From contig JAJZOG010000005.1 of assembly GCA_021811585.1 (NCBI GenBank), forward strand, positions 725 through 64,724: a DNA stretch of 64,000 bases, written 5' to 3'. Positions 572 to 55,211 of this stretch are shown one piece after another; within the stretch, counting starts at the first letter, position 1; the number at the start of each line of letters is the position of its first letter. Origin of the DNA: a bacterium. Its GTDB lineage: Bacteria; Patescibacteriota; Doudnabacteria; UBA920; VMFF01. The notes beneath the pieces were generated by a model. The model was not told where the DNA came from and ran no database searches. It was given only the letters and a program-made list of their open reading frames with translations. The position numbers and the translations under genes were made by a program.

Positions 572-678
572 CTGATAGTTAGTAGTTGGTAGTTAATAGT
601 TAATAGTTATGGCGATTTCGCCTACCAACTGCCACCTATTAACTGTCACCTATTAACTACCAACTACTAACTATCAAT
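572..678. repeat. Heptamer-array hairpin element 1, (TAGTTRR)n / (YYAACTA)n inverted
   Basis: The rpsS-rplV spacer (about 118 nt) is filled by a run of TAGTTGG/TAGTTAA units, then ATGGCGATTTCGCC, then a run of CTACCAA/CTACTAA units. The outer 27 nt of the two arms are perfectly complementary. Confidence 0.85.
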
Positions 679-4190: not shown

Positions 4191-4306
4191 TCCAACTCCC
4201 AACTCCCACCTATCAACTCCCAACTCCCAACTACTATCTACCAACTATTATCTACCAACTACCAACTACCAACTACTAACTACTAACTATCAATCACTAA
4301 CCACCA
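4191..4306. repeat. Heptamer-array element 2, one orientation only, (CCAACTM)n
   Basis: TCCAACTCCCAACTCCCACCTATCAACTCCCAACTCCCAACTACTATCTACCAACTA... with strict 7-nt periodicity. It fills the rplE-rpsH spacer. Confidence 0.85.
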
Positions 4307-4310
4307 ATTT

Positions 4311-4706
4311 ATGTTTACCGATCCAATTTCAGACATGTTAACAAGAATACGAAATGCGGCAGCTGCCAAAAAAGCAGAGGCAATTATGCCGTATTCCAAG
4401 CTGAAGCACGGCCTCGCGGACATCATGCTCGAAGAGGGTTATATTTCCGGAGTGGCTGTGCGCGAAAGCGGCTCGTTTAAGCAATTGGAGGTAAAGCTAA
4501 AGTATGATAAAGACGGAGGTGCGATTATAATGGGCATAAAGAGAATCAGTAAGCCGGGGCAGAGAATTTACGTTCCGGTTTCTGAAATCCCAAAATCAAA
4601 CGGAGGGCTTGGCATAACAATACTCTCCACTTCAAAGGGATTGATGACAGACCGCAAAGCCCGTAAGGAAAAGTATGGCGGCGAAGTAATTTGCCAATTA
4701 TGGTAA
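4311..4706 (+). CDS. rpsH: 30S ribosomal protein S8
   Basis: MFTDPISDMLTRIRNAAAAKK is the hallmark uS8 N-terminus. Confidence 0.95.
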   Translation: MFTDPISDMLTRIRNAAAAKKAEAIMPYSKLKHGLADIMLEEGYISGVAVRESGSFKQLEVKLKYDKDGGAIIMGIKRISKPGQRIYVPVSEIPKSNGGLGITILSTSKGLMTDRKARKEKYGGEVICQLW

Positions 4707-4715
4707 CCTTAACTC

Positions 4716-4800
4716 TTAATTCCCACCTACCAACTTCCAACTACCAACTATCATCTGCCAACTATCATCTATCAACTACCATCTATTAACTACCAACTAA
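4716..4800. repeat. Heptamer-array element 3, (CCAACTA / CCATCTA)n
   Basis: CCACCTACCAACTTCCAACTACCAACTATCATCTGCCAACTATCATCTATCAACTACCATCTATTAACTACCAACTAAC lies directly upstream of the rpsN ATG. Confidence 0.85.
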
Positions 4801-4801
4801 C

Positions 4802-4996
4802 ATGGCCAAGAAATCATTAATTGCAAAAGCGAAAAGATCGCGGATCAACCCCAAATTTAAGACCAGGGTTGTCAGGCGGTGCTGGAAATGCGGCCGCAAT
4901 CGCGGCTATATGCGCGATTTCGATTTGTGCAGAATTTGTTTCCGCGAGCTTGCTTCCAAAGGAGAAATCCCTGGAATTGTGAAATCGTCCTGGTAA
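4802..4996 (+). CDS. rpsN: 30S ribosomal protein S14 type Z (zinc-binding)
   Basis: 61 aa, ...[33 protein letters not shown] (CxxC...CxxC); close to Bacillus RpsZ. Confidence 0.95.
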
Positions 4997-5018
4997 ATTA
5001 ACGATAGTTTTTAAACAT

Positions 5019-5574: not shown

Positions 5575-5719
5575 TCAACTACCATCTATCACCTACTAAG
5601 TCCTAACTACCATCTATCAACTACCAACTACCATATACCAACTACCGCCGCTCACCAACTATTAACTACCATCTATCAACCCCCAACTATCAACTACCAT
5701 CTACCAATTATCAACTACT
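5575..5719. repeat. Heptamer-array element 4, (CTACCAW / CTATCAA)n
   Basis: The roughly 145-nt rplF-rplR spacer consists of CAACTACCATCTATCACCTACTAAG...CTACCATCTACCAATTATCAACTACT. The six-frame ORF 5557-5856 that reads through it (TTIYHLLSPNYHL...) is an artefact. Confidence 0.85.
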
Positions 5720-10459: not shown

Positions 10460-10655
10460 GGGTCCAACCCAATACCCCAACCTAAACCCCCAACCCAAAC
10501 CCCCAACCTAAACCCCTAATCCAAACCCCCAATCTAAGGATATTTATGCAATATATAAGGGAAACTCAATTAAAATATTATTAAAACACTTGCCTAAACA
10601 CCGCAATCGTGTCCTTAGATTGGGGTATTAGATTGGGGTATTGGGTTGGACCCGT
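10460..10655. repeat. TIR-bounded palindromic element: 21-bp perfect terminal inverted repeats enclosing (AACCYAAACCCCC)n 13-mer arrays and an AT-rich core
   Basis: GGGTCCAACCCAATACCCCAA at 10460-10480 is the exact reverse complement of TTGGGGTATTGGGTTGGACCC at 10635-10655. The left arm has 5.5 tandem 13-mers. The right arm has 2 units in the opposite orientation. Confidence 0.85.
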
Positions 10656-12443
10656 ATGAAAAAAACTAAAAATTTTAACCAATCTTGGGATCTTTCGGAG
10701 CTTTACAGTGGCGTGAATGATCCGAAGATATTTAAGGATTTGGCTGCTTTAGAAAAACGCGCGGAAAATTTCGAAAAGGAACATAAGGGCAAAGTGGCTG
10801 CCTATGGATTACCGCGGACACTCGCAGCAGTAAAAGAATTCGGCAAAATCCAGGAAAAACTACGTTTGCCCGTGGCTTTTGCTGAGCTTAGTTTTGCTGT
10901 TGACGGCGCAAATGTACAAATCAATTCCTTAAATCAAAAAGTCCAGGTGCAGTGCAGTGAAATACGCAACCATATAATCTTTTTTCCGCTTGAGCTGGGA
11001 AAGAATAAAAATCTCGCGGAGTTTGCAAAAAGCAAAAAGGCGCGGCCATTCAATATCCTTTTCAAAGATTTACTGGAAAATCGCAAATACCAGCTTTCGT
11101 TTGCCGAAGAGAAAATAATCAATATCAAAGCCACCACTTCTTCTGCCGGATGGATTCGGCTGCATGAAAAGCTGGAAAGCTCGCTGCGCATTAAATTAAA
11201 AAACAGTTTTGGAGAAATCAAGGAGCTTACTTTAGAGGAGGCCTTAAATTTTTCCCATTCGCCTAAAAGGCAGGAGCGCATTGCTGCTGCGCAGGGGATT
11301 TCGAACGCGTTGAAAGGCAATTTAGAAGTTTCTTCGCACATATATAATATGATTTTGCTCAATAAAGCTCGGGAAGATAAATTGCGCAATTGGCCATATC
11401 CCGAATCGCAGAGGCATGCCGCAAATTCTTTGAGTAAAAAGAGCGTGGATGCGCTGGCTGCTGCAACGCGGGAACATTTTGGCCTGGTTCCAAGATATTA
11501 CAAGCTCAAAAGGAAACTTTTGAAGTTAGACCGCCTTTTCGATTATGACAGGTATGCTCCGTTGCCGCAGAAGAGCGAAAGCAAATATACTTTTGAGCAG
11601 GCGGTCAAGGTTGTGCGGGCGGCATTCCACGCGTTTGATCCGGAATTCGAAAAATATTATTTGGATATTTTGGCTGCCGGGCATGTTGATGTCGTCCCGC
11701 GCAAAGGCAAACGCGCCGGCGCGTTTTGCGCTCACATGCCGCATCCGCATTTGCCGTATGTGCTTTTGAACCATGCGGGCAGCGGGAGGGATGTTGAAAC
11801 CCTTGCGCATGAGATGGGGCACGCTGTGCACGATTGTTTTGCCGAAAAGAATCCTTTTTTGGTAGCGCATCCGCCCTTGGCGCTTGCGGAAACGGCGAGC
11901 GTCTTTGGCGAGATGCTGGTATTTGAGTATTTGCTTGCGTCCGCCAAAACTAAAGCAGAACAGATTGCTTTGATTGCCGCGAAAATTGATATAATTTTTG
12001 CCACGATTCCCCGCCAAATATCCATGTTTTTTTTCGAACGCAAAGTGCATGATTTTGTCCGGCAAAACGGCGAGATCCCCGCGGAAAAAATAAATGAATT
12101 TTGGATGCAAATTCAAAGGGAAATGTTCGGCGACAGCGTGACCATCACTGAAAACTATTCTGTATGGTGGTCGTATATAATCCATTTCTTCGAGGTCCCG
12201 TTTTATACCTATGCTTATGCATTCGGAAATTTGTTGGTTTTTTCTTTATACGAACAATACAAAGAAGGCGCGCCAGGATTTGTGGAAAACTACAAAACCT
12301 TGCTTTCATTGGGCGGTGCAAAAACGCCTGCGCAGGCCTTGCAAACTTTCGGCTTTGATATAGAGAGAAAGGAATTTTGGCAAAGCGGCTTTAAAGTATT
12401 GGAAAAACTTATTGAACAGCTCGAATCCCTGTGCTATCATTAA
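10656..12443 (+). CDS. pepF: Oligoendopeptidase F (M3 family zinc metallopeptidase)
   Basis: HEMGHAVHD zinc motif. Length about 595 aa. Start moved to ATG 10656 (MKKTKNF) because the 10641 ATG lies inside the inverted repeat. Confidence 0.85.
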   Translation: MKKTKNFNQSWDLSELYSGVNDPKIFKDLAALEKRAENFEKEHKGKVAAYGLPRTLAAVKEFGKIQEKLRLPVAFAELSFAVDGANVQINSLNQKVQVQCSEIRNHIIFFPLELGKNKNLAEFAKSKKARPFNILFKDLLENRKYQLSFAEEKIINIKATTSSAGWIRLHEKLESSLRIKLKNSFGEIKELTLEEALNFSHSPKRQERIAAAQGISNALKGNLEVSSHIYNMILLNKAREDKLRNWPYPESQRHAANSLSKKSVDALAAATREHFGLVPRYYKLKRKLLKLDRLFDYDRYAPLPQKSESKYTFEQAVKVVRAAFHAFDPEFEKYYLDILAAGHVDVVPRKGKRAGAFCAHMPHPHLPYVLLNHAGSGRDVETLAHEMGHAVHDCFAEKNPFLVAHPPLALAETASVFGEMLVFEYLLASAKTKAEQIALIAAKIDIIFATIPRQISMFFFERKVHDFVRQNGEIPAEKINEFWMQIQREMFGDSVTITENYSVWWSYIIHFFEVPFYTYAYAFGNLLVFSLYEQYKEGAPGFVENYKTLLSLGGAKTPAQALQTFGFDIERKEFWQSGFKVLEKLIEQLESLCYH

Positions 12444-24020: not shown

Positions 24021-24078
24021 ATGGTAGTGGTAGTTGGTAGTTGGTAGATGGTAGATGGTAGATGGTAGTTGGTGTTGA
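24021..24078. repeat. Heptamer-array element 5, (GGTAGTTGG / GGTAGATGG)n in the opposite orientation to elements 2-4
   Basis: ATGGTAGTGGTAGTTGGTAGTTGGTAGATGGTAGATGGTAGATGGTAGTTGGTGTTGATA lies in the pgk-gpmI spacer. Confidence 0.85.
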
Positions 24079-32273: not shown

Positions 32274-32390
32274 CTAGTTAATAGTTGGTAGTTAGTAGTT
32301 AATAGTTAGTAGTTGGTAGTTAATAGTTGGGGGGCGATCCATCTGCCACCTACCACCTACTAACTACTATCTACCAACTACCACTTATCC
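32274..32390. repeat. Heptamer-array hairpin element 6, inverted arms around a GGGGGGCGATCCATCTGCCACC core
   Basis: CTAGTTAATAGTTGGTAGTTAGTAGTTAATAGTTAGTAGTTGGTAGTTAATAGTTGG, then the core, then ACCTACCACCTACTAACTACTATCTACCAACTACCACTTATCC. Lies directly upstream of the frr ATG. Confidence 0.85.
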
Positions 32391-42946: not shown

Positions 42947-44221
42947 ATGCTGGACATAAAATTTATCCGTGAAAATCCGGAGGCAGTAAAACAGGGTGCG
43001 GCCGCGAAAAATGCGGACGTGGATGTTTATCGGGTAATTGAAATTGACGAGAAGCGCCGCTTGCTTTTGTCGCAGCTGGAATCCCTGCAGGCAACCAAAA
43101 ATTCCGTGTCCAAAGAAATTCCAAAACTTTCCCCCGCGGACCGCGAGGCAAAGATTTTGGAAATGAAAAACGTAGACGTGCAATCGGAAAAAGTGCGCGC
43201 CGAATTGGATGCCGCTGAAAAAGAATTTAACGCTCTGATGCTGAATATCCCGAACTTGCCGAAAGAAGACGTCAAGATAGGCAAGGATGACAGTGAAAAT
43301 TACGTTATTCGCACCGCAGGAGAACCAACCAGGTTTCCGTTCAAGCCCAAAGATTATATGGAATTGGGCGCTGCTTTGGATATAATCGATACCGAGCGTG
43401 CCGCAAAAACTTCGGGTGCGCGCTTTGGCTTCCTCAAAGGCGGCGGCGCGCTTTTGGAAATAGCCATTTTGAATTTCACAATCGCAAAGCTTTTAAAGCA
43501 CGGCTTCAAACTTATTTTGCCGCCGTACATGGTTAAAGAGGAAATCATGCGCGGCATGGGATATTTGGAACACGGCGGCATTGAAGAAGTGTACTATTTG
43601 GAGAAAGACGGCTTGTATTTGATAGGCACATCAGAGCAGGTCATCGGCGGAATGCATGCCGGAGAAATTTTAAAAGCAGAGGATTTGCCCCTTCGCTATG
43701 CGGGCTTTTCTTCGTGTTTCAGGCGCGAGGCGGGCTCTTATGGAAAAGATACCAAGGGAATTCTGCGCGTGCACCAGTTCGACAAAATTGAAATGTTTTC
43801 ATTCACAACTCCGCAAGAGAGCGATAAGGAGCATGATTTTTTGCTCTCCGTTGAAGAGGAACTAATGCGGGATCTGAAATTGCCTTACCAGGTTTTGGGA
43901 ATTTGCAGCGGAGATTTGGGCGACAGCGCCGCGCGCAAATACGACATTGAAACCTGGATACCTTCCCAGGAAAAATACCGCGAAACCCATTCCACTTCCA
44001 CGACAACGGATTTTCAATCCCGGCGGCTGAACATCCGCTATAAAAACAAAGAAACAGGCAAAAACGAGCTCGTGCACATACTTAACGGTACGGCTTTTGC
44101 AATGGGCAGAATTATTATTGCCATTATTGAAAATTATCAGCAGGAAGACGGCTCGGTAAGAATTCCCGAAGTTCTCCAGCCGTACATGTTCGGCGTGAAT
44201 AAGCTGGTAGTTGGTAGGTAG
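42947..44221 (+). CDS. serS: Seryl-tRNA synthetase
   Basis: MLDIKFIRENPEAVKQ N-terminal coiled coil. Class II core ...FRREAGSYGKDTKGILRVHQF... Confidence 0.9.
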   Translation: MLDIKFIRENPEAVKQGAAAKNADVDVYRVIEIDEKRRLLLSQLESLQATKNSVSKEIPKLSPADREAKILEMKNVDVQSEKVRAELDAAEKEFNALMLNIPNLPKEDVKIGKDDSENYVIRTAGEPTRFPFKPKDYMELGAALDIIDTERAAKTSGARFGFLKGGGALLEIAILNFTIAKLLKHGFKLILPPYMVKEEIMRGMGYLEHGGIEEVYYLEKDGLYLIGTSEQVIGGMHAGEILKAEDLPLRYAGFSSCFRREAGSYGKDTKGILRVHQFDKIEMFSFTTPQESDKEHDFLLSVEEELMRDLKLPYQVLGICSGDLGDSAARKYDIETWIPSQEKYRETHSTSTTTDFQSRRLNIRYKNKETGKNELVHILNGTAFAMGRIIIAIIENYQQEDGSVRIPEVLQPYMFGVNKLVVGR

Positions 44222-44408
44222 TAGGTAGTAGCTGATAGTTGGTAGTTAGTAGGTGGTAGTTGGTAGTTGGTAGGTAGTAGTTGGTAGTTGGTAGGTAGTA
44301 GTTGATAGTTGGTAGGTAGTAGTTGATAGTTAGTAGTTAGTAGGTGGTAGTTAGAAGGGAATTTAGTTTGCGTCGCTGTTTTTATCTTAACTACCATCTA
44401 TTATCTAC
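44213..44408. repeat. Heptamer-array element 7 (longest): about 140 nt of GGTAGTTGG units with a 21-nt super-period, plus a short inverted CTACCATCTA segment
   Basis: GGTAGGTAGTAGTTGGTAGTT / GGTAGGTAGTAGTTGATAGTT repeated. It yields the spurious minus-strand ORF 44137-44397 (PTNYQLL)n. Starts at the serS stop codon. Confidence 0.85.
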
Positions 44409-44424
44409 TATTAATAGGAATTTT

Positions 44425-54445: not shown

Positions 54446-55042
54446 ATGATTCGCCTCCCCAAATCAATAGAAAAACTTATAAATGAATTTTCAAAATTGC
54501 CGGGCATAGGCCAAAAAACAGCCCACCGCCTGGCATTTTATCTTTTAAAGCGTCCGGAAGTTGATCTGCAAATTTTTTCCGAAGCACTGGCGAATTTAAA
54601 GAAAGAAGTTTTTTTTTGTGCGGTTTGCCGCAACATGTCGGATACTGAAGTTTGTGCGGTGTGTGCCGATGCTTCGCGCGACAACGGCATTATCTGCGTT
54701 GTTGAGGAACCGCTGGATGCCCAGGCAATAGAACAAACAGGGTTTCGCGGCACTTATCATATTTTAGGCGGTGTAATTTCCCCGCTGGACGGCATTGGGC
54801 CCCAGCAGCTTAATATTGATTCTCTGGTTGGCAGGATTAAAGGGAAAAGCATCAAGGAAGTTATTTTAGCAACAAATCCGTCTTTGGAAGGGGAAGTGAC
54901 ATCCATGCAGCTGGTTGAGCTTATAAGGCCTTTGGGCGTCAAAATAACGCGCCTGGCGCGAGGCCTGCCTGTTGGCGGGGACATCGAATACTCTGATGAG
55001 GTGACTATTTCCAGGGCCATGGAAGGCAGAAAAGAAATATAG
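54446..55042 (+). CDS. recR: Recombination protein RecR
   Basis: LPGIGQKTAHRLAFYLL HhH. C4 zinc finger CAVCRNMSDTEVCAVC. Toprim domain. Confidence 0.95.
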   Translation: MIRLPKSIEKLINEFSKLPGIGQKTAHRLAFYLLKRPEVDLQIFSEALANLKKEVFFCAVCRNMSDTEVCAVCADASRDNGIICVVEEPLDAQAIEQTGFRGTYHILGGVISPLDGIGPQQLNIDSLVGRIKGKSIKEVILATNPSLEGEVTSMQLVELIRPLGVKITRLARGLPVGGDIEYSDEVTISRAMEGRKEI

Positions 55043-55043
55043 A

Positions 55044-55186
55044 TGATAGTTGGTAGATGGTAGATGGTAGTTGGGGGCCGATCCAACTACTAACTACTAA
55101 CTATCAACTATTTTTTATCGCCAACTACTAACTACCAACTACTAACTACCAACTATTAGCTACCAACTACTAATTGCCAACCCGCA
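55044..55186. repeat. Heptamer-array hairpin element 8, inverted arms around GGGGGCCGATCC, then a further direct CCAACTA array
   Basis: GATAGTTGGTAGATGGTAGATGGTAGTTGG, then GGGCCGATCC, then AACTACTAACTACTAACTATCAAC, then ...CCAACTACTAACTACCAACTACTAACTACCAACTATTAGCTACCAACTACTAATTGCCAA. Starts 2 nt after the recR stop. Confidence 0.85.
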
Positions 55187-55211
55187 AAAGCGGGGGTTTT
55201 TTTAATTTGTT
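55187..55211 (+). terminator. Rho-independent terminator after recR and element 8
   Basis: ACCCGC-aaaa-GCGGGGG followed by TTTTTTT. Confidence 0.75.

What the first reader, a model, noticed from the sequence alone, without database searches (positions are those of the whole stretch)
32274..32390. Conserved central core (GGSGATYC ... CTGCCACCTA) shared by the hairpin-type heptamer elements
Element 1 has ...TAGTT-ATGGCGATTTCGCC-TACCAACTGCCACCTATTAACT... at 572-678. Element 6 has ...TAGTTGGGGGGCGATCCATCTGCCACCTACCACCTACTAACT... at 32274-32390. Element 8 has ...GGTAGTTGGGGGCCGATCCAACTACTAACT... at 55044-55100. The arms are variable heptamer arrays, but the loop region shares GGCGAT/CCGAT plus, in two copies, CTGCCACCTA. 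A conserved core flanked by variable inverted arrays suggests a defined element with a functional centre, either a protein-binding site or a loop motif, rather than random microsatellite expansion.
Basis: seen in the sequence. Interest (0 to 1): 0.6.

Follow-up and report, generated by a model that had tools for sequence, protein, structure and literature searches.

The report
Shared tip of heptamer-repeat hairpins
Three intergenic hairpins in this uncultured (Candidatus Doudnabacteria) genome have arms built from 7-base microsatellite repeats. They share a short G/C-rich tip, most likely because they are recent copies of one another, not because the tip is a proven functional site.

Summary
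Each element is a long hairpin: a left arm of TAGTTGG-type heptamers, a short non-repetitive tip, and a right arm of CCAACTA-type heptamers. RNA folding gives -40 to -50 kcal/mol.

E6 and E8 have nearly the same 8-nt tip (GGGGCGAT and GGGCCGAT). E1 and E6 share GGCGAT plus the rare unit pair CCA[A/T]CTG-CCACCTA. This is more than chance (p about 1e-4 to 2e-3).

The claim needs three corrections:
- CTGCCACCTA is made of arm units, not loop sequence.
- Two further hairpin-type elements of the same genome lack the motif.
- The motif is absent from all hairpin-type TAGTTGG elements sampled in other genomes and from metagenome scans.

The closest relatives have 10-24 nt spacers at the frr junction and no arrays, so the elements are lineage-specific insertions.

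Best reading: these are paralogous copies of a palindromic heptanucleotide-microsatellite element. The arms change fast by slippage. The unique tip changes only by point mutation, so it looks conserved. A functional centre is neither shown nor excluded.

This belongs to a known kind: heptanucleotide repeats of the STRR, TAACTGA and Xanthomonas GGGAATC type, including inverted pairs. Interest is low to moderate.

The parts
32275..32330 (+). E6 left arm: 8 heptamer units (TAGTTAA/TAGTTGG/TAGTTAG)
32331..32338 (+). E6 tip (apex) GGGGCGAT. This is the only non-heptamer sequence of the element and contains GATC together with the next C
32339..32388 (+). E6 right arm: CCATCTG CCACCTA CCACCTA CTAACTA CTATCTA CCAACTA CCACTTA. 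It is 78% complementary to the left arm.
573..610 (+). E1 left arm (TGA TAGTTAG TAGTTGG TAGTTAA TAGTTAA TAGTTAT), between rpsS (232-564) and rplV (683-1267)
611..624 (+). E1 tip GGCGATTTCGCC+TA. GGCG/CGCC forms a 4-bp G-C clamp around an ATTT loop
625..677 (+). E1 right arm (CCAACTG CCACCTA TTAACTG TCACCTA TTAACTA CCAACTA CTAACTA TCA), with a 14-nt internal duplication. The outer 27 bp are perfectly complementary to the left arm in mirrored unit order. The arm is followed by TTTTT
55040..55074 (+). E8 left arm (TAG ATGA TAGTTGG TAGATGG TAGATGG TAGTTGG). It begins at the recR stop codon
55075..55082 (+). E8 tip GGGCCGAT, identical to the E6 tip at 7 of 8 positions
55083..55112 (+). E8 right arm (CCAACTA CTAACTA CTAACTA TCAACTA), followed by TTTTTT
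55117..55122 (-). A fourth GGCGAT directly abutting a heptamer array end. The minus strand reads TAGTTGGCGATAAAAAA. It is not at a hairpin tip
55123..55181 (+). One-directional CCAACTA-type array after E8, followed by a canonical terminator at 55181-55204
44331..44410 (+). Fourth hairpin-type element: 23-nt arms, 87% complementary, 34-nt loop without the core motif. Its left arm is the end of the long array 44205-44354, which also supplies the serS stop codon
4192..4308 (+). One-directional CCAACTA-type array between rplE and rpsH, of the same unit family
4723..4801 (+). One-directional CCAACTA-type array between rpsH and rpsN, ending at the S14 start codon
5576..5719 (+). One-directional CCAACTA-type array between rplF and rplR. 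It contains an internal CCCCCAACTA (TAGTTGGGGG on the minus strand)
24022..24077 (+). One-directional TAGTTGG/TAGATGG array between pgk and gpmI. Relatives have a 0-1 nt spacer here

Best explanation
E6 (32275-32388) belongs to a small, lineage-specific family of intergenic palindromic elements in a Candidatus Doudnabacteria genome. The arms are heptanucleotide microsatellite arrays: TAGTTGG-family units on one arm and their complement CCAACTA on the other. The short tip is the only non-repetitive part.

The three elements with the shared tip (E1, E6, E8) are paralogues. A founder hairpin was copied to other gene junctions, by an unknown route (recombination between arrays or a MITE/REPIN-like process). 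Afterwards the arms diverged quickly by replication slippage, which adds, removes or homogenises units. The tip can change only by point mutation or small indels. The 'conserved core between variable arms' is therefore mainly a difference in mutation rate, not evidence of a functional centre.

Once transcribed, each element folds into a long hairpin that loops the inserted ~110 nt out of the mRNA. For E1 and E6 this puts the upstream stop codon and the downstream start codon within about 14-35 unpaired nt of each other. That would explain why such insertions are tolerated in operon junctions that are 10-24 nt long in relatives.

Shown: the anatomy, the hairpin potential, the non-chance tip similarity, lineage specificity, and absence of the motif elsewhere. 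Inferred: common descent, the slippage-versus-point-mutation argument, and tolerance through looping out.
For: - Hairpins are real.
- Tip similarity is beyond chance, and E1 and E6 share a rare tip-adjacent unit pair.
- E1's arms mirror three different unit variants perfectly over 27 bp. Independent slippage in each arm would not produce this.
- G[GC]CGAT lies within 16 nt of 4 of 17 TAGTT-array ends in this genome, against 0 of 170 in other genomes. The motif is therefore specific to this genome, as expected for shared descent.
- Four relatives with 70-75% Frr identity have 10-24 nt spacers at the BNR-frr junction. The two that also cover the pgk-gpmI junction have 0-1 nt there. None has a heptamer array in about 82 kb.
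- The motif is missing from 2 of 5 hairpin-type elements of the same genome.
- Inverted heptamer arrays with unrelated centres occur in many phyla.
- This genome holds a second dispersed palindromic family, so small palindromic elements do spread in it.
- Slippage as the driver of heptanucleotide arrays, and strain-level indels in 7-nt steps, are described in the literature: PMC4679880 and PMC4692102.
Against: - Only three copies carry the motif, so descent cannot be separated from constraint.
- No target-site duplications, transposase or RAYT gene were seen (Pfam was run on only 21 proteins), so the copying route is unknown.
- No close relative or strain variant was available. All independent assemblies were 100% identical, so faster evolution of arms than tip was not observed directly.
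- GGCGAT also abuts an array end that is not a hairpin tip (55117-55122). This fits a boundary motif at least as well as a tip.
- E6 itself could not be checked in an independent assembly.
Confidence: 0.55

Rival explanations
1. Functional centre. The G-rich/CGATYC tip is a recognition site in the hairpin loop for a DNA- or RNA-binding protein, or a loop-loop contact. The arms merely present it.
For: The tip similarity is non-random. In three elements the tip sits exactly at the apex of a stable hairpin. E1's tip forms its own G-C clamp with a 4-nt loop.
Against: - The consensus is loose, and only E6 fits GGSGATYC exactly.
- Two of five hairpin-type elements of the same genome lack it.
- It is absent from all sampled hairpin-type elements in other genomes and from metagenome and viral scans.
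- Relatives lack the elements altogether, so no conserved function at these junctions depends on it.
- No Rfam family matches.
Confidence: 0.1
2. Array-boundary or strand-switch by-product. G(G)CGAT is a sequence that flanks the 3' end of TAGTT arrays in this genome. Hairpin forms arise when replication switches template at that boundary and copies the array back, which leaves the boundary sequence as the loop.
For: GGCGAT abuts an array end that is not a hairpin tip (55117-55122, minus strand). The motif is near 4 of 17 array ends, against 0 of 170 elsewhere. TAGTTGGGGG also occurs inside an array. E1's mirrored unit order fits an inverted duplication.
Against: Most one-directional arrays in the window (4192, 4723, 5576, 24022, 44205) do not end in the motif. 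The model does not by itself explain the shared right-arm units CCAxCTG-CCACCTA of E1 and E6.
Confidence: 0.15
3. The whole hairpin, not its tip, is an RNA-level regulatory element. It could be a partial intrinsic terminator or attenuator, an RNase III processing site, or a 3' stabiliser of the upstream cistron, as REP elements are in E. coli.
For: The stems are very stable. E1 and E8 are flanked by an A-tract on the 5' side and T5-T6 on the 3' side. All elements lie between co-directional genes immediately after stop codons.
Against: - E6 is followed only by TTT, and the consensus scan flags none of the elements.
- E8 is followed by a separate canonical terminator.
- A terminator between rpsS and rplV would split an essential operon.
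- No strand is consistently favoured. For E1 and E6 the antisense RNA folds as well or better: -52.6 and -53.2 against -50.5 and -46.2 kcal/mol.
- Relatives do without any element.
Confidence: 0.15
4. Coincidence. Short G/C-rich loops resemble each other by chance, helped by G-run slippage of the TAGTTGG unit.
For: GGCGAT is a common hexamer. GGGGSCGATCC with up to 1 mismatch occurs as often as expected. The motif was defined after seeing the data. The fifth element shows no significant similarity.
Against: Simulation p-values are 1.5e-4 to 2e-3, even with loop base composition. Both exact matches to GGGGSCGATCC lie exactly at hairpin tips. E1 and E6 additionally share 13 of 14 nt of a rare unit pair.
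Confidence: 0.07

Closest known systems
Heptanucleotide long simple-sequence repeats: cyanobacterial STRR (Mazel 1990), LSSR (Mrazek 2007) and TAACTGA repeats of Beggiatoaceae, Cyanobacteria and Bacteroidetes (MacGregor 2015, PMC4679880)
   Same: - 7-nt tandem units in mixed variants.
- Almost exclusively intergenic, often right before start codons that lack a Shine-Dalgarno motif.
- Present inside ribosomal-protein operons.
- Absent from the same junctions in close relatives.
- Scattered across phyla.

   Different: The unit family is TAGTTGG/CCAACTA. The host is a CPR (Patescibacteria) bacterium. Several loci are inverted pairs with a shared short tip, which those papers do not describe.
Convergent (inverted) GGGAATC heptamer repeat pairs in Xanthomonas (Rehm et al. 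2015, PMC4692102)
   Same: Two heptamer arrays in opposite orientation lie close together and can form stem-loops or cruciforms. They are mostly intergenic between co-directional genes, and lengths and positions are not conserved between related species.
   Different: The Xanthomonas units are G-rich and can form G-quadruplexes. The units here are not G4-prone. A shared tip sequence was not reported there.
REP / REPIN / BIME elements with RAYT transposases
   Same: Dispersed intergenic imperfect palindromes lying after genes within operons, absent at syntenic sites of relatives, and forming mRNA hairpins. Every unit here contains GTAG, the tetranucleotide conserved at REP 5' ends (this last point is from my own knowledge).
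   Different: REPs have conserved stems and variable loops, the opposite of what is seen here. REPs occur in hundreds of copies, and a RAYT gene is the family hallmark. Only 5 elements were seen in about 104 kb, and no RAYT was seen in the proteins scanned.
MITEs (miniature inverted-repeat transposable elements)
   Same: Small, non-coding, with terminal inverted repeats. They fold into hairpins and are scattered in intergenic DNA.
   Different: No target-site duplication is visible at E1, E6 or E8. The ends are variable microsatellite arrays rather than conserved transposase-binding TIRs.
Rho-independent terminators
   Same: A hairpin followed by a T-run at E1 and E8, with an A-tract upstream.
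   Different: The stems are very long and A/T-rich, and the elements lie inside operons. E6 lacks a T-run, and the consensus scan does not call any of them.

Membership tests
Heptanucleotide SSR arrays (STRR/LSSR class) | Head-to-tail repeats of a 7-nt unit, three or more copies, with variant units | tested here: met
   TRF found period-7/14/21 arrays at 8 loci. TAGTTNRTAGTT occurs 36 times against 0.02 expected.
Heptanucleotide SSR arrays (STRR/LSSR class) | Intergenic location | tested here: met
   All arrays lie between annotated genes. Only the serS stop codon and last 5 codons overlap an array.
Heptanucleotide SSR arrays (STRR/LSSR class) | Rapid turnover: not conserved at the same junctions in related genomes | tested here: met
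   Four relatives with 70-75% Frr identity have short spacers and no arrays in about 82 kb.
Heptanucleotide SSR arrays (STRR/LSSR class) | Copy-number polymorphism in 7-nt steps between strains | tested here: inconclusive
   The ENA and Logan assemblies of the same population are 100% identical, and no other strain was available.
Inverted heptamer-array pairs (Xanthomonas type) | Two arrays of complementary units in convergent orientation within a short distance | tested here: met
   E1, E6, E8 and 44331-44410, compared with the description in PMC4692102.
REP/REPIN | Conserved palindromic stem sequence with a 5' GTAG and a variable loop | tested here: not met
   Here the stems vary in unit number and order and the tip is the shared part. 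GTAG is present in every unit, but as part of the repeat.
REP/REPIN | Associated RAYT (Y1 HUH transposase) gene in the genome | not tested
   Only 21 window proteins were scanned with Pfam, and all are housekeeping proteins. The rest of the genome was not available.
MITE | Terminal inverted repeats | tested here: met
   Arms are 78-92% complementary. E1 and E8 share the outer ends TGATAGTT...AACTATCA.
MITE | Target-site duplication flanking the element | tested here: not met
   No direct repeat flanks E1, E6 or E8. The flanks are an A-tract and a T-tract that extend the stem.
Intrinsic terminator | G+C-rich stem with a 3-8 nt loop, followed directly by a U-tract | tested here: inconclusive
   E1 and E8 have T5-T6 after the stem and E6 has TTT. 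The stems are A/T-rich, and the scan calls none of them although it does call the canonical terminator at 55181.
Any Rfam RNA family | Covariance-model score at or above the gathering threshold | tested here: not met
   No hits at gathering thresholds. With the permissive E-value threshold there were only sub-threshold hits to plant miRNA precursor models, which are generic long hairpins.

The most novel reading that the evidence does not exclude
The hairpins are a previously undescribed, self-propagating palindromic element of CPR bacteria. The conserved tip would be the recognition or cleavage site of a hairpin-specific enzyme (HUH/RAYT-like or a nuclease), and the heptamer arms would grow outward as a consequence of that enzyme's action or of hairpin-templated repair. 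The recurrence of the same TAGTTGG unit in arrays of more than ten phyla would then point to a shared enzymatic origin of heptanucleotide arrays rather than plain slippage.
Probability: 0.06. Interest if true: 0.7.

Novelty: new member of a known kind. Interest (0 to 1): 0.25.

Why it matters
Heptanucleotide arrays are the most over-represented long microsatellites in bacterial intergenic DNA, yet neither their origin nor their function is settled. This window shows them in a reduced CPR genome. They are wedged into essential operon junctions (S19-L22, L5-S8-S14-L6-L18, pgk-gpmI, BNR-frr) that are nearly spacer-free in relatives.

The shared tip gives a handle on their history. It marks which hairpins are copies of one another, and it could be used to time array growth against point mutation. 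If the tip turned out to be a recognition site, it would identify a new mobile-element mechanism. As it stands, the finding is a modest extension of a known phenomenon. It is also a caution that 'conserved core, variable arms' does not by itself imply function.

Tried and rejected
1. Rfam at gathering and at permissive thresholds: nothing real. No tRNA genes in the window.
2. Core plus arm pattern TAGTTGGGGGNCGATCCANCT: 0 hits in JGI metagenomes and 0 in IMG/VR.
3. E1 core 20-mer in IMG/VR: one hit, inside a coding region with no arrays, judged to be chance.
4. Unbiased search for (TAGTTGG)2-N4-16-(CCAACTA)2 in metagenomes: only 3 hits, with unrelated loops.
5. Walking along the same genome by about 40 kb (L126, L127, L130, L135). 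This found no further arrays on the right and one weak fifth hairpin-type element on the left, without a significant core.
6. Checking E6 in an independent assembly failed. frr and three neighbouring proteins are not on record.
7. Covariation analysis (R-scape style) was not attempted. With three copies whose arms differ in unit number, no positional alignment of the stems is meaningful.
8. Sense-strand RNA selection through G-U pairs: only E8 favours the sense strand, while E1 and E6 do not. Rejected as evidence.
9. Promoter idea: no sigma-70-like site in E6.
10. A Shine-Dalgarno role was considered. The genome as a whole rarely has SD motifs, so their absence next to arrays says nothing.

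Full report
WHAT IS THERE

The window carries eight intergenic loci built from one heptamer family. The units are TAGTTGG, TAGTTAG, TAGTTAA, TAGATGG and TAGGTGG, and on the other strand CCAACTA and its variants. TAGTTNRTAGTT occurs 36 times against 0.02 expected, and TRF reports period-7/14/21 arrays at 567-677, 4192-4308, 4723-4799, 5576-5718, 24022-24077, 32275-32384, 44205-44358 and 55040-55181.

All arrays lie between co-directional + strand housekeeping genes: S19|L22, L5|S8, S8|S14, L6|L18, PGK|iPGM, BNR-repeat protein|Frr, SerRS|unknown, and RecR|hydrolase.

Four loci have inverted arms. These are E1 (573-677), E6 (32275-32388), E8 (55040-55112) and a looser one at 44331-44410. E1, E6 and E8 fold as RNA at -50.5, -46.2 and -40.6 kcal/mol, with z-scores of -11.7, -5.4 and -9.0. 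They also fold as single-stranded DNA.

ANATOMY OF THE 'CORE'

Read in heptamer register, the only non-repetitive sequence in each element is a short tip:
- E1: TAGTTAT|GGCGATTTCGCC TA|CCAACTG CCACCTA
- E6: TAGTTGG|GGGGCGAT|CCATCTG CCACCTA
- E8: TAGTTGG|GGGCCGAT|CCAACTA CTAACTA

With up to 1 mismatch it occurs 8 times, always inside arrays, including arrays that are not hairpins. E1's tip forms its own GGCG/CGCC clamp around ATTT. Part of the E6/E8 resemblance is a G-run extension of the unit, because TAGTTGGGGG also occurs inside the 5576-5718 array.

IS IT MORE THAN CHANCE?

GGCGAT on its own is an ordinary hexamer, with 45 found against 49 expected. The combination is not ordinary:
- The E6 and E8 tips match at 7 of 8 positions (p = 5e-4, or 1.6e-3 with loop base composition).
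- All three tips share a 6-mer with at most 1 mismatch (p = 1.5e-4 to 1.8e-3).
- E1 and E6 both start the right arm with the unit pair xxxxCTG + CCACCTA. These units make up 4/119 and 7/119 of all units.
- G[GC]CGAT lies within 16 nt of 4 of 17 TAGTT-array ends in the window, against 0 of 170 such ends in other genomes.
- One of those four (55117-55122, minus strand) is an array boundary, not a hairpin tip.

The resemblance is therefore real, but it is loose. Only E6 fits GGSGATYC exactly.

ADDITIONAL COPIES

The organism is a Candidatus Doudnabacteria (CPR), judged from Frr homologues. The same genome is present in ENA and Logan assemblies, which are 100% identical to the window where they overlap. 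These gave about 40 kb of extra flank.

The flank contains no further arrays on the right. On the left it has one short, weakly folding hairpin-type element downstream of fusA (L135:8700-8790; -24 kcal/mol, z = -1.8). Its 39-nt loop is not significantly similar to the E1, E6 or E8 tips (p = 0.09, 0.5 and 0.87). The window's fourth hairpin (44331-44410) also lacks the motif. So 3 of the 5 hairpin-type elements known in this genome carry it.

RELATIVES

Four relatives with 70-75% Frr identity keep the same gene order. Their spacers before frr are 10-24 nt, against 131 nt in the window. Two of them also cover the pgk-gpmI junction, where the spacer is 0-1 nt against 80 nt in the window. None has a heptamer array in about 82 kb. 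The elements are therefore lineage-specific insertions or expansions in junctions that are normally almost spacer-free.

OTHER GENOMES

The loci come from Cyanobacteria, Bacteroidota, Acidobacteriota, Planctomycetota, Verrucomicrobiota, Chlamydiota, Omnitrophota, Firmicutes, Chloroflexota and several CPR groups.

In these loci period 7 dominates the tandem repeats (275 arrays, 110 unit classes). Twenty of the arrays are inverted pairs, and their centres are 4-72 nt long and mutually unrelated. Two elements of one Planctomycetota genome share a TCGAC centre, so within-genome sharing of a tip is not unique to this window.

Further scans gave no support for a conserved tip:
- Core plus arm pattern: 0 hits in JGI metagenomes and 0 in IMG/VR.
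- Canonical (TAGTTGG)2-loop-(CCAACTA)2 hairpins in metagenomes: 3 hits, with unrelated loops.
- One 20-mer hit in a viral contig lies in a coding region and is chance.
- No Rfam family matches.

WHAT IS KNOWN

Heptanucleotide arrays are a described class but an unexplained one:
- STRR repeats in cyanobacteria.
- The over-representation of 7-nt long SSRs, for which polymerase slippage has been proposed as the cause.
- TAACTGA repeats, which lie before SD-less start codons and inside ribosomal-protein operons and are absent from the same junctions in close relatives (PMC4679880).
- GGGAATC repeats of Xanthomonas, with 70-75 convergent inverted pairs per genome that can form stem-loops (PMC4692102).

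The present elements meet the defining features of this class. They do not meet those of REP/REPIN elements, which have conserved stems and variable loops. They also do not meet those of MITEs, because no target-site duplication is present.

MECHANISM

The best-supported reading is that E1, E6 and E8 are paralogous copies of one palindromic microsatellite element. The mirrored order of three different unit variants over 27 perfect base pairs in E1 points to inverted duplication or hairpin-templated correction, not to independent slippage in each arm.

After copying, the arms change quickly by slippage. The tip cannot slip, so it keeps the ancestral sequence. This produces 'conserved core, variable arms' without any selection on the core.

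Folding loops the insert out of the mRNA. In E1 only about 14 unpaired nt remain between the S19 stop codon and the L22 start codon, and in E6 about 35 nt remain. This is close to the spacer length in relatives and is a plausible reason why such insertions are tolerated.

No strand is consistently favoured for folding. E6 has no T-run, and the consensus scans call neither promoters nor terminators in E6. A terminator, attenuator or RNase III role for the whole hairpin remains possible but is not supported. A functional tip is neither shown nor excluded.

VERDICT

A defined element family exists, but a functional centre is not demonstrated. This is a new member of a known kind: heptanucleotide repeat arrays, including inverted pairs, here in a CPR genome. 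Interest is low to moderate.

Noticed in passing
window 10461-10652; L135:9567-9630 (same genome, about 20 kb upstream of the window): A second dispersed palindromic family, unrelated to the heptamers. The terminal inverted repeats are GGGTCCAACCCAATACCCCAACC... and GGGTTGAACCCAATACCCTAACC.... The window copy has internal 13-mer tandem repeats (CCAACCCAAACCC) and a ~70-nt loop. The second copy is a compact hairpin of -43 kcal/mol. ENA contigs of this genome break at the window copy.
   Followed up: partly
window 4192-5018: The gene order is L5-S8-S14-L6 (S8 at 4311-4706; S14 at 4802-4996, Pfam PF00253). From my own knowledge, the order in bacteria is almost always L5-S14-S8-L6, so S8 and S14 are swapped here. 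S8 is bracketed by two heptamer arrays in the same orientation (4192-4308 and 4723-4801), which hints at array-mediated rearrangement. This was not checked in relatives.
   Followed up: partly
window 44205-44221: The last five codons and the TAG stop codon of serS are supplied by the heptamer array (...AAG CTG GTA GTT GGT AGG TAG). TAGTTGG-orientation arrays place a stop codon in every reading frame within 21 nt. CCAACTA-orientation arrays contain neither stop nor start codons.
   Followed up: partly
Period 7 accounts for 275 of the tandem arrays in those loci, with 110 different unit classes. Why 7 nt, and why the same unit in unrelated phyla, remains unexplained.
   Followed up: partly
whole window: Most genes lack a Shine-Dalgarno motif and have A/T-rich leaders. 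Arrays run right up to start codons: S8, S14, L18 and frr start 0-10 nt after an array.
   Followed up: partly
L127:7200-7334 (S10-L3 spacer, same genome): A 135-nt hairpin that is not made of heptamers (56-nt arms, 79% complementary) fills the S10-L3 spacer of the same ribosomal-protein operon.
   Followed up: no
L128, L129 and the ENA contig ends: Independent short-read assemblies of this population end inside the repeats. L128 stops at window 4293, inside an array. L129 stops at 599, in the left arm of E1. The two ENA contigs overlap only at 10548-10682. Array lengths near or above the k-mer size (for example 44205-44358) may therefore be collapsed.
   Followed up: partly
L064:2962-3200 and L064:4439-4605: A bin labelled Limosilactobacillus gorillae holds two hairpin-type TAGTTGG elements with homologous 72-nt centres. 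The centres look like a small SD-preceded ORF (GGAG...ATGAAGATT.../AGGAG...ATGAGAATT...).
   Followed up: no
L028:5311-5384 and L114:2608-2782: Two hairpin-type heptamer elements of one Planctomycetota MAG meet at nearly the same tiny centre (..TCGTCGACAAAC.. and ..TTGCTCGACGAAC..). Within-genome sharing of the tip is therefore seen elsewhere too.
   Followed up: partly
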